In this document: piece by piece, positions 58,952 to 59,150 of the stretch
Position numbering within the stretch: the stretch's first letter is position 1
Layout: each line of letters opens with the position of its first letter
Assembly: GCF_000027125.1 (NCBI RefSeq)
Contig: NC_017626.1
Length of the DNA stretch: 64,000 nt
Strand: one strand, 5' to 3'
From: Escherichia coli 042
Lineage (GTDB): Bacteria > Pseudomonadota > Gammaproteobacteria > Enterobacterales > Enterobacteriaceae
Program-made: the position numbers and the translations under genes
Notes under the pieces: generated by a model
Seen by the model: only the letters and a program-made list of their open reading frames with translations
What the model was told of the DNA's origin: nothing
Databases searched by the model: none

Positions 58952-59150
58952 GCCGGATGCGGCGTGAACGCCTTATCCGGCCTACGGCTCGGTTTGTAGG
59001 CCTGATAAGACGCGCCAGCGTCGCATCAGGCTCCGGGTGCCGGATGCGGCGTAAACGCCTTATCCGGCCTACGGCTCGGATTTGTAGGCCTGATAAGACG
59101 CGCCAGCGTCGCATCAGGCACAGGATGCGGCGTAAAATGCCTTATCCGGC
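58952..59150. repeat. REP/BIME cluster (about five REP copies in alternating orientation) between nrdA and nrdB
   Basis: Repeated gccggatgcggcgtgaacgccttatccggcctac and gtaggcctgataagacgcgccagcgtcgcatcaggc units. Confidence 0.85.

What the first reader, a model, noticed from the sequence alone, without database searches (positions are those of the whole stretch)
58952..59150. REP cluster inside the nrdA-nrdB intercistronic spacer
About five REP copies in alternating orientation fill the 233-bp gap between two genes of one operon. Such arrays form stable stem-loops in mRNA and could set differential stability of the nrdA and nrdB segments. This array also produces a false N-terminal extension of nrdB in the ORF track.
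Basis: seen in the sequence. Interest (0 to 1): 0.25.

Follow-up and report, generated by a model that had tools for sequence, protein, structure and literature searches.

The report
Known REP array between nrdA and nrdB
The 233-bp gap between the two ribonucleotide reductase genes of E. coli holds five copies of the common REP palindrome, an element already catalogued and already used as the test case for how REP hairpins lower translation of the upstream gene, so the finding is real but ordinary.

Summary
The window is E. coli. nrdA ends at 58942 and nrdB starts at the ATG at 59176. Five REPs in strictly alternating orientation (Y, Z2, Y, Z2, and a truncated Y) occupy 58952-59150 of the 233-bp spacer. 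This is a BIME-2 array made of 2.5 tandem units of 87/88 bp. The 453-aa ORF that starts at the TTG at 58945 is a false extension of the 376-aa NrdB.

The element is already known. EcoCyc lists it as REP164a-e. The nrdAB REP transcript was the model in Liang, Rudd and Deutscher (2015), who showed that a REP within 15 nt of a stop codon stalls the ribosome and lowers translation. Here the first hairpin starts 9 nt after the nrdA UGA.

It was not tested here, and I did not find it reported for this locus.

- The array varies between strains. Alleles carry 5, 3 or 4 REPs, and 31% of complete E. coli genomes carry an 88-bp spacer with no REP and a Box C-like palindrome instead.
- Across 110 Enterobacterales species the spacer always holds a stable hairpin, usually within 15 nt of the nrdA stop, built from unrelated sequences.

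This suggests that selection acts on the structure and that the REP array is E. coli's version of it.

The parts
56657..58942 (+). nrdA, class Ia ribonucleotide reductase alpha subunit; the stop codon UGA is at 58940-58942.
   Evidence: ORF list. NF006578 match at 1644 bits over the full length.
58943..58951 (+). 9-nt gap (TATTGAGAT) between the nrdA stop codon and the first paired base of REP1. This is inside the 15-nt limit reported for REP-dependent ribosome stalling.
   Evidence: Sequence, fold, and the rule as quoted in PMC12306157.
58952..58985 (-). REP1, type Y, inverted on the + strand (an iREP, with CTAC at 58982-58985). Hairpin energy is -21.3 kcal/mol.
58986..58995 (.). Tail-to-tail linker GGCTCGGTTT (10 nt) between REP1 and REP2.
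58996..59031 (+). REP2, type Z2, forward orientation with the 5' GTAG. Hairpin energy is -22.8 kcal/mol.
59032..59038 (.). Head-to-head linker TCCGGGT (7 nt) between REP2 and REP3.
59039..59072 (-). REP3, type Y, inverted. It is a direct repeat of REP1, 87 bp downstream. Hairpin energy is -21.3 kcal/mol.
59084..59119 (+). REP4, type Z2, forward. It is a direct repeat of REP2, 88 bp downstream. Hairpin energy is -21.9 kcal/mol.
59121..59150 (-). REP5, a degenerate Y copy with a truncated 5' arm and no CTAC. It forms a weak hairpin (-11.8 kcal/mol, z = -2.2).
59151..59175 (+). Unique 25-nt stretch carrying the nrdB Shine-Dalgarno sequence (AGGA at 59166-59169). The CAGGA motif is shared by most Enterobacteriaceae spacers examined; Pantoea- and Erwinia-type spacers carry TGGA instead.
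59176..60306 (+). nrdB, beta subunit, 376 aa, starting at the true ATG. ORF 58945-60306 is a false extension of it.
58999..59069 (-). One Y-Z2 unit that scores above the Rfam gathering threshold for naRNA4 (RF02564), on the strand antisense to nrdAB.
   Evidence: 82.3 bits against a gathering score of 59.5.
59142..59177 (-). yoaM, an antisense small ORF of 11 aa ([11 protein letters not shown]). Its start overlaps the nrdB ATG and its stop codon lies inside REP5.
   Evidence: K-12 annotation b4779, Weaver et al. preprint, translations.

Best explanation
This is a BIME-2-type cluster of five REP palindromes (EcoCyc REP164a-e) lying in the transcribed spacer of the nrdA-nrdB-yfaE operon.

In the mRNA each REP folds into a hairpin of about -21 kcal/mol. 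The first hairpin starts 9 nt after the nrdA UGA. A ribosome terminating on nrdA therefore runs into a stable helix, stalls, and NrdA output falls. This is the published model for this locus, in which stalling triggers mRNA cleavage and trans-translation and is relieved under stress. That last detail comes from my memory of the Liang 2015 abstract, because the paper is not held in the library.

The same hairpins should also block 3'-to-5' exonucleases and so protect the nrdA segment. That is the classical REP role and is inferred here, not shown.

The array arose by tandem amplification of an 87/88-bp Y+Z2 unit from a single REP pair. That single pair is the state seen in Salmonella, Citrobacter, Klebsiella and Enterobacter. 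Copy number is unstable, and the array is not required species-wide.
For: [quoted passage not shown] PMC10100675 lists REP164a-e for nrdA.

The definition of BIME-2, and the known variation in copy number between strains, come from PMC3333891.

Alleles of 233, 226, 241 and 145 bp differ by whole or partial 88-bp units.

Cross-species evidence:
- All 110 Enterobacterales spacers examined contain a hairpin of -10 kcal/mol or stronger.
- In 96 of 110 it starts no more than 15 nt after the stop codon (median 7 nt).
- A simple hairpin of -14 kcal/mol or stronger starting within 15 nt is present in 84% of species against 22% of dinucleotide shuffles.
- In at least 33 species the first element is a REP-like inverted copy with a CTAC tail, starting 0-13 nt (mostly 6-9 nt) after the stop, in the same position and orientation as E. 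coli REP1.
Against: - 1684 of 5425 complete E. coli genomes (31%) have an 88-bp spacer with no REP. Its only hairpin, Box C-like, starts 19-24 nt after the stop, outside the 15-nt limit. Any REP-dependent control of NrdA is therefore dispensable.
- Only the first REP is needed for the stalling model. The other four have no assigned role, and the 3-copy and 5-copy alleles coexist.
- I could not read the primary paper, so the experimental details rest on a secondary citation and on my memory.
- No expression data were examined here.
- The 110 species are phylogenetically related, so the figure of 84% is not made up of 110 independent events.
Confidence: 0.8

Rival explanations
1. The hairpins act as barriers to 3' exonucleases and as processing boundaries, so the nrdA segment outlives the nrdB-yfaE segment and the two subunits are made in unequal amounts through mRNA stability. 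Partial Rho-dependent attenuation at the BIME could add to the effect.
For: - The general mechanism is established for REPs and BIMEs inside operons (Newbury 1987, Khemici & Carpousis 2004 and Espeli 2001, as cited).
- The array contains four very stable hairpins.
- In species without REPs the same spacer carries a GC-rich hairpin. In 28 of 69 such species at least 4 of the 8 bases after the hairpin are T, which resembles an internal terminator or attenuator.
Against: - No data for nrdA and nrdB transcript levels or 3' ends were found. The Term-seq supplements that are held do not mention nrdA.
- The array has no run of T and no terminator-like site was found in it.
- nrdB is essential and lies downstream, so strong polarity is unlikely.
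- 31% of strains lack the array.
Confidence: 0.4
2. The array is a selfish or neutral passenger. The REPs were amplified at a tolerated intergenic site by the REP-associated transposase (TnpA-REP, also called RAYT) or by unequal recombination, and have no selected effect on nrdAB.
For: - Presence and copy number vary between strains: 5, 3 or 4 REPs of different subtypes, or none.
- The alleles differ by unit-length indels and by 7- or 8-bp slips, as expected from recombination between repeats.
- The same spacer hosts REPs, Box C-like elements and other palindromes in different genera, which suggests a permissive landing site.
- TnpA-REP cleaves and recombines BIMEs in vitro.
Against: - A hairpin close to the stop codon is present far more often than in shuffled spacers (84% against 22%), and it persists even where no repeat family is involved. 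This argues that the structure itself is maintained.
- An experimental effect on translation has been reported for this locus.
Confidence: 0.3
3. The array works at the DNA or nucleoid level. As a BIME-2 it is a DNA gyrase binding and cleavage site inside a highly transcribed operon. It may also supply naRNA4-like RNA or cruciforms that HU uses to bridge REP sites.
For: - The array has the Y/Z2 composition that defines BIME-2, the class reported to be cleaved by gyrase in vivo (Espeli & Boccard 1997, cited; definition).
- One unit scores 82.3 bits against Rfam naRNA4, above the gathering score of 59.5.
- Qian et al. 2015 report that both naRNA4 and its antisense condense DNA with HU in vitro.
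Against: - Nothing specific to this locus supports it. REP164 and nrdA are not mentioned in Qian et al..
- The match above threshold lies on the strand antisense to the operon.
- 31% of strains lack the array.
Confidence: 0.15

Closest known systems
REP164a-e, the nrdA-nrdB BIME of E. coli K-12 (EcoCyc name) and the model locus of Liang, Rudd & Deutscher 2015, Mol Cell 58:431
   Same: It is the same locus and the same element. The K-12 spacer is also 233 bp, with five REPs in the same order. The 501-bp query spanning the spacer and its flanks is 98.6% identical in K-12. The 9-nt distance from the stop codon to REP1 is identical.
   Different: A few point differences in loops and stems (for example GTGAAC against GTAAAC in R1 and R3) and one change next to the nrdB start (ACATTC against ACACTC). 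The window matches strain 118UI at 100%.
REP325 / naRNA4 (Rfam RF02564), the yjdM-yjdN BIME-2 array
   Same: The same Y + Z2 tandem architecture, with units of about 77-88 bp. One unit here passes the Rfam gathering score.
   Different: - REP325 has six units with identical U spacers and lies at the 3' end of a gene. This array has 2.5 units and sits between two cistrons.
- The strand that matches the naRNA4 model best is antisense to nrdAB.
- No HU or nucleoid data exist for this site.
The malE-malF intercistronic REPs, the classical mRNA stabiliser (Newbury et al. 1987)
   Same: REPs inside an operon, downstream of the promoter-proximal gene, where hairpins in the mRNA can protect the upstream segment.
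   Different: Differential stability has been shown there. It has not been shown for nrdAB in anything I could read. For nrdAB the reported effect is on translation termination.
Single REP pair in the nrdA-nrdB spacer of Salmonella, Citrobacter, Klebsiella, Raoultella and Enterobacter
   Same: - The first element is an inverted REP with a CTAC tail, starting 6-9 nt after the nrdA stop.
- It is followed by a short linker and a forward GTAG REP.
- The nrdB Shine-Dalgarno region follows.
   Different: There is only one pair (spacers of 81-114 bp), the REP consensus is genus-specific (GCCGGGTGGCGCTACGCTTACCCGGC), and there is no tandem amplification. Arrays of three or more REPs were seen only in E. 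coli and E. albertii.

Membership tests
REP (palindromic unit) of E. coli | An imperfect palindrome of 30-40 nt with an internal mismatch in the stem (PMC3333891). | tested here: met
   R1-R4 fold as hairpins of 30-36 nt with an internal mismatch or bulge, -21 to -23 kcal/mol, z = -3.8 to -5.4. R5 is weaker, at -11.8 kcal/mol.
REP (palindromic unit) of E. coli | The conserved tetranucleotide GTAG 5' of the foot of the palindrome (CTAC on the inverted copy). | tested here: met
   CTAC at 58982-85 and 59069-72, GTAG at 58996-99 and 59084-87. R5 lacks it and is a truncated copy.
REP (palindromic unit) of E. coli | Extragenic location and many copies in the genome. | tested here: met
   The array lies wholly between the nrdA stop and the nrdB start. 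The 501-bp query finds a median of 36 places per E. coli genome, with the piece limit reached. There are 24 core matches in the window against 4.9 expected.
BIME-2 | Composed of y and z2 REPs in inverse orientation. | tested here: met
   The order is Y(inverted)-Z2(forward)-Y-Z2-Y'. The GCCGGATG (Y) and GCCTGATG (Z2) cores, and the longer Z2 loop region, are visible. Assigning individual copies to y or z2 rests on my memory of the consensus sequences.
BIME-2 | Multiple tandem copies with short linkers; no long L linker and no IHF site, which would indicate BIME-1. | tested here: met
   There are 2.5 tandem units of 87/88 bp at 94-96% identity. The linkers are 10-11 nt (tail to tail) and 7 nt or 1 nt (head to head). 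An IHF site was not searched for explicitly, but the linkers are too short to hold one.
BIME-2 | The number of tandem copies at a locus varies between strains. | tested here: met
   Alleles of 233, 226 and 241 bp (5 REPs) and of 145 bp (3 REPs). The general statement is in PMC3333891.
BIME-2 | In vivo binding and cleavage by DNA gyrase. | not testable with these tools
   Known only from the literature on other BIME-2 loci (Espeli & Boccard 1997, cited).
Translation-regulating REP (Liang, Rudd & Deutscher 2015) | A REP hairpin no more than 15 nt downstream of the stop codon of the upstream gene. | tested here: met
   There are 9 nt between the UGA (58940-42) and the first paired base at 58952. 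The rule, and nrdAB as the reported example, are quoted.
Translation-regulating REP (Liang, Rudd & Deutscher 2015) | Ribosome stalling, mRNA cleavage, trans-translation and lowered protein output that depend on the REP. | not testable with these tools
   Reported for this locus in a paper not held in the library. It is known here only through a secondary citation and my memory of the abstract.
naRNA4 (Rfam RF02564) | A sequence-and-structure match at or above the gathering score of 59.5 bits. | tested here: met
   58999-59069, minus strand: 82.3 bits. The other units score 53.7 (minus strand) and 41.1 and 40.7 (plus strand), all below the threshold.
naRNA4 (Rfam RF02564) | Expressed as a discrete RNA that binds HU and condenses the nucleoid. 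| not testable with these tools
   No data exist for this locus, and nrdA and REP164 are absent from Qian et al. 2015. An antisense transcription start 174 nt upstream of yoaM is reported, so the minus strand may be transcribed.
Intrinsic (Rho-independent) terminator | A GC-rich hairpin followed directly by a run of T. | tested here: not met
   There is no terminator-like site within 58943-59175 on either strand, and none of the five hairpins is followed by a run of T.

The most novel reading that the evidence does not exclude
The feature under selection is a stable hairpin placed within about 15 nt of the nrdA stop codon, not the REP array itself. Enterobacterales keep this hairpin using unrelated sequences: unique GC hairpins, genus-specific REP pairs, Box C-like elements, and the E. 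coli BIME-2 array. Termination-coupled throttling of NrdA would then be an order-wide way of setting the alpha:beta ratio of ribonucleotide reductase. On this reading, the 31% of E. coli strains carrying the 88-bp allele, whose hairpin sits 19-24 nt from the stop, are natural escape variants with higher NrdA output.
Probability: 0.3. Interest if true: 0.45.

Novelty: already known. Interest (0 to 1): 0.13.

Why it matters
Ribonucleotide reductase controls dNTP supply, and so affects replication fidelity and recovery from DNA damage. Post-transcriptional control of the NrdA:NrdB ratio is therefore of physiological interest.

The element itself, and its effect on nrdA translation, are already in the literature, so this finding adds no new biology by being flagged.

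The modest added value is comparative:
- The array is a variable, Escherichia-specific amplification of an older single REP pair.
- About a third of E. coli genomes, including ST131 and O111:H8, have replaced it with a different palindrome that falls outside the 15-nt limit.
- A hairpin close to the stop codon recurs across the order.

Together these give a cheap natural experiment for testing the ribosome-stalling model, and a warning that K-12 results on nrdAB regulation may not carry over to all E. coli lineages.

Tried and rejected
- **Reading the primary paper.** I tried Liang et al. 2015 and the 2016 review by DOI, PMC id and PubMed id. Neither is held. I relied on the citation in PMC12306157.
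- **Direct transcript evidence.** The supplements of Adams et al. 2021 (Term-seq) contain no nrdA, nrdB or yoaM entry. No supplement text is held for Dar & Sorek 2018 or Choe 2022. The ribosome-profiling paper I recalled as Li et al. 2014 and the BIME polymorphism paper of Bachellier 1997 could not be retrieved under the PMC ids tried. I therefore found no measurement of nrdA against nrdB mRNA or protein.
- **Several literature searches** returned mostly noise, because 'rep' also matches 'replication' and journal names.
- **An internal promoter for nrdB, or a terminator inside the spacer.** The consensus scan found none, so both were rejected as explanations.
- **The 77-codon extension as real coding sequence.** Rejected. 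It matches no family, the indels between alleles break the frame, and the open length upstream of the ATG varies from 4 to 80 codons.
- **Covariation analysis of the first hairpin across species.** Considered but not run. Genus-specific REP consensus sequences evolve in concert across the genome, so compensatory changes would not show selection specific to this locus.

Full report
**1. What is in the sequence**

The window is Escherichia coli. A 501-bp query across the finding matches strain 118UI at 100% and K-12 at 98.6%, and matches 5425 of 5426 complete genomes overall.

nrdA runs 56657-58942, nrdB runs 59176-60306 and yfaE runs 60306-60560. Each matches its NCBIfam equivalog over the full length.

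Five REPs lie in it in strictly alternating orientation:

| REP | Type and orientation | Coordinates | Tetranucleotide | Hairpin energy |
|---|---|---|---|---|
| R1 | Y, inverted | 58952-58985 | CTAC tail | -21.3 kcal/mol |
| R2 | Z2, forward | 58996-59031 | GTAG head | -22.8 kcal/mol |
| R3 | Y, inverted | 59039-59072 | CTAC tail | -21.3 kcal/mol |
| R4 | Z2, forward | 59084-59119 | GTAG head | -21.9 kcal/mol |
| R5 | truncated Y, inverted | about 59121-59150 | none | -11.8 kcal/mol |

R1+R2 and R3+R4 are tandem direct repeats with a period of 87/88 bp and 94-96% identity.

R1-R4 have z-scores of -3.8 to -5.4. R5 has z = -2.2. The whole spacer folds at -122.4 kcal/mol with z = -6.7.

A REP core pattern is found 24 times in the window against 4.9 +/- 2.4 in shuffles, and nine of the matches are in this spacer.

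The array leaves 9 nt after the nrdA UGA. It leaves 25 nt before the nrdB ATG, and those 25 nt hold the Shine-Dalgarno AGGA.

**2. The ORF artefact**

The mechanical ORF list gives 58945-60306 (TTG start, 453 aa). That is the 376-aa NrdB plus 77 codons read through the REPs.

- The extension matches no protein family.
- Every RefSeq record examined starts nrdB at the ATG.
- The open in-frame stretch upstream of the ATG is 80, 67, 43, 40, 9 or 4 codons in different E. coli alleles.

**3. What kind of element it is**

Ton-Hoang et al. (PMC3333891) give these definitions. REPs are imperfect palindromes of 30-40 nt with a 5' GTAG. BIME-2 elements consist of y and z2 REPs in inverse orientation, arranged as multiple tandem copies with short linkers, and copy number at a locus varies between strains. 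This array meets every sequence criterion for BIME-2. Assigning each copy to type y or z2 rests on my memory of the consensus sequences.

No run of T follows any hairpin, and no terminator-like or promoter-like site was found in the spacer.

Rfam's naRNA4 model, which was built from the REP325 BIME-2 array, matches one Y-Z2 unit above its gathering score, but on the strand antisense to nrdAB (58999-59069, 82.3 bits against 59.5). The plus-strand matches score about 41 bits. I take this to mean that the Rfam family is in effect a model of the BIME-2 unit.

**4. It is already known**

Murashko et al. 2023 list 'REP164a-e' against nrdA in their table of EcoCyc REP names.

[quoted passage not shown] I could not obtain that paper. 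From memory of its abstract:
- nrdAB was its model system;
- the effect disappears when the spacing is 16 nt;
- stalling leads to mRNA cleavage and trans-translation;
- the effect is relieved by overexpressing an RNA helicase and by UV stress.

The geometry in the window fits. The first paired base of R1 (58952) lies 9 nt after the last base of the UGA.

**5.

The spacer varies between E. coli strains.

| Spacer length | Content | Example |
|---|---|---|
| 233 bp | 5 REPs | K-12 and this window |
| 226 bp | 5 REPs with a different R2-R3 junction | O157:H7 |
| 241 bp | 5 REPs with an 8-bp duplication in a linker | CFSAN061762 |
| 145 bp | 3 REPs; exactly one 88-bp unit missing | AR_0119 |
| 189 bp | 4 REPs of another subtype | BH100N |
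| 88 bp | no REP | ST131, O111:H8 |

In an evenly spaced sample of the hit ranking, about 44% of rows were 5-REP alleles, 21% were 3-REP, 5% were the 189-bp type and 31% were the 88-bp type. A direct search with the 88-bp allele finds it in 1684 of 5425 genomes, which is 31%.

The 88-bp spacer contains a different palindrome, CCCCTCTCCCCTTGCGGGAGAGGG followed by TTAGGGTGAGGGG. It is itself a dispersed repeat, with a median of 14 places per genome. I recognise it from memory as Box C. Its size and copy number agree with the figures for Box C in PMC2267715 (56 bp, 32 copies).

Its hairpin begins 19-24 nt after the nrdA stop, which is outside the 15-nt limit.

**6. Species comparison**

A degenerate DNA pattern for the NrdA C-terminus ([15 protein letters not shown]) retrieved 120 loci from one-genome-per-species contigs. 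The spacer could be delimited in 110 of them.

- Spacer length ranges from 42 to 240 bp, with a median of 83 bp.
- Arrays of three or more E. coli-type REPs occur only in E. coli and E. albertii, the latter with 240 bp and 5 REPs.
- Salmonella enterica arizonae, Citrobacter, Klebsiella, Raoultella, Enterobacter and Pseudescherichia carry a single tail-to-tail REP pair in spacers of 81-114 bp. Its first member is an inverted copy with a CTAC tail that starts 6-9 nt after the stop codon, in the same place and orientation as E. coli R1.
- Pseudocitrobacter, Pluralibacter and a few others carry Box C-like elements.
- Species with the shortest spacers (42-60 bp) carry a unique GC-rich hairpin, often followed by a run of T. 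Examples are Kosakonia (AAGGGGCGGGGAAACCCGCCCTTTTTTT) and Cedecea or Buttiauxella (AATCCCCTC...GAGGGGATTTTT).

All 110 spacers hold a hairpin of -10 kcal/mol or stronger, and in 96 of them it starts within 15 nt of the stop (median 7 nt). A simple hairpin of -14 kcal/mol or stronger starting within 15 nt is present in 84% of species against 22% of dinucleotide shuffles of the same spacers.

The species are related, so these are not 110 independent events. The hairpins do, however, belong to at least three unrelated sequence classes.

**7. Interpretation**

*Shown here:* the anatomy, the class of element, the offset from the stop codon, the thermodynamic stability, the false ORF, the variation between strains, and the recurrence of a stop-proximal hairpin across species.

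*Taken from the literature:* this locus is the published example of REP-dependent ribosome stalling and reduced translation of the upstream gene.

*Inferred:*
- The E. coli array grew by tandem amplification from an ancestral single REP pair.
- The hairpins also protect the nrdA segment from 3' exonucleases.
- The structure close to the stop codon, rather than the REP sequence, is what selection maintains.

The frequency of the REP-less allele shows that the array is dispensable, whatever it does. It also leaves room for the view that most of the copies are selfish passengers.

**8. Verdict**

The element is already catalogued and has been studied experimentally at this very locus. Novelty is 'already known' and interest is low. 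The comparative results are a useful footnote and offer a natural test of the published model.

Noticed in passing
window 59142-59177 (-): The antisense small ORF yoaM (K-12 b4779, 11 aa, [11 protein letters not shown]) is intact here. Its ATG overlaps the nrdB ATG and its TAA stop lies inside REP5. Across E. coli spacer alleles the ORF is 11, 5 or 44 aa, and only the first 5 codons are shared; those codons overlap the nrdB start region. The peptide therefore does not look conserved. [quoted passage not shown]
   Followed up: partly
L005 444-531, L007 444-531 (E. coli strains SB0258h1 and ST131): 31% of complete E. coli genomes (1684 of 5425) carry an 88-bp nrdA-nrdB spacer with no REP. It holds a Box C-like dispersed palindrome instead (median 14 copies per genome), and its hairpin starts 19-24 nt after the nrdA stop. 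The 3' part of this spacer (...GGGTGAGGGGTAATAAAACCACAGGACACATTC) resembles the Pseudocitrobacter spacer more closely than it resembles the E. coli REP allele.
   Followed up: partly
window 58999-59069 (-): Rfam naRNA4 (RF02564) scores above its gathering threshold (82.3 bits) only on the strand antisense to nrdAB. Together with the reported antisense transcription start inside nrdB, this leaves open that a naRNA4-like RNA is made from the minus strand.
   Followed up: no
window about 16870-16971, about 28727-28881, about 52185 and about 60573: Other REP clusters and single copies in the window: roughly 4 copies near 16.9 kb, roughly 5 near 28.8 kb, one downstream of yfaL near 52.2 kb, and one between yfaE and inaA. 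The last also gives a weak Rfam naRNA4 hit at 60530-60605 (28.9 bits).
   Followed up: no
L008, L036, L114 (Kosakonia and relatives); L043, L089, L117 (Cedecea, Buttiauxella): In Enterobacterales without REPs, the intra-operon nrdA-nrdB spacer carries a GC-rich hairpin followed by a run of T, which resembles an intrinsic terminator or attenuator sitting between two subunit genes of an essential enzyme.
   Followed up: partly
L125 and L099: Two records look mislabelled. 'Citrobacter freundii M-21' has a spacer that differs by a single base from those of the Atlantibacter species, and 'Enterobacter ludwigii EnVs2' has a spacer nearly identical to that of a Pantoea species.
   Followed up: no
L003 444-669 (O157:H7) and L006 444-684: Minor alleles differ by 7 bp (the R2-R3 junction is replaced by the R4-R5-type junction) and by an 8-bp duplication (CTACGGCT) in the second linker. 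This is the pattern expected from recombination or slippage between the repeats.
   Followed up: no
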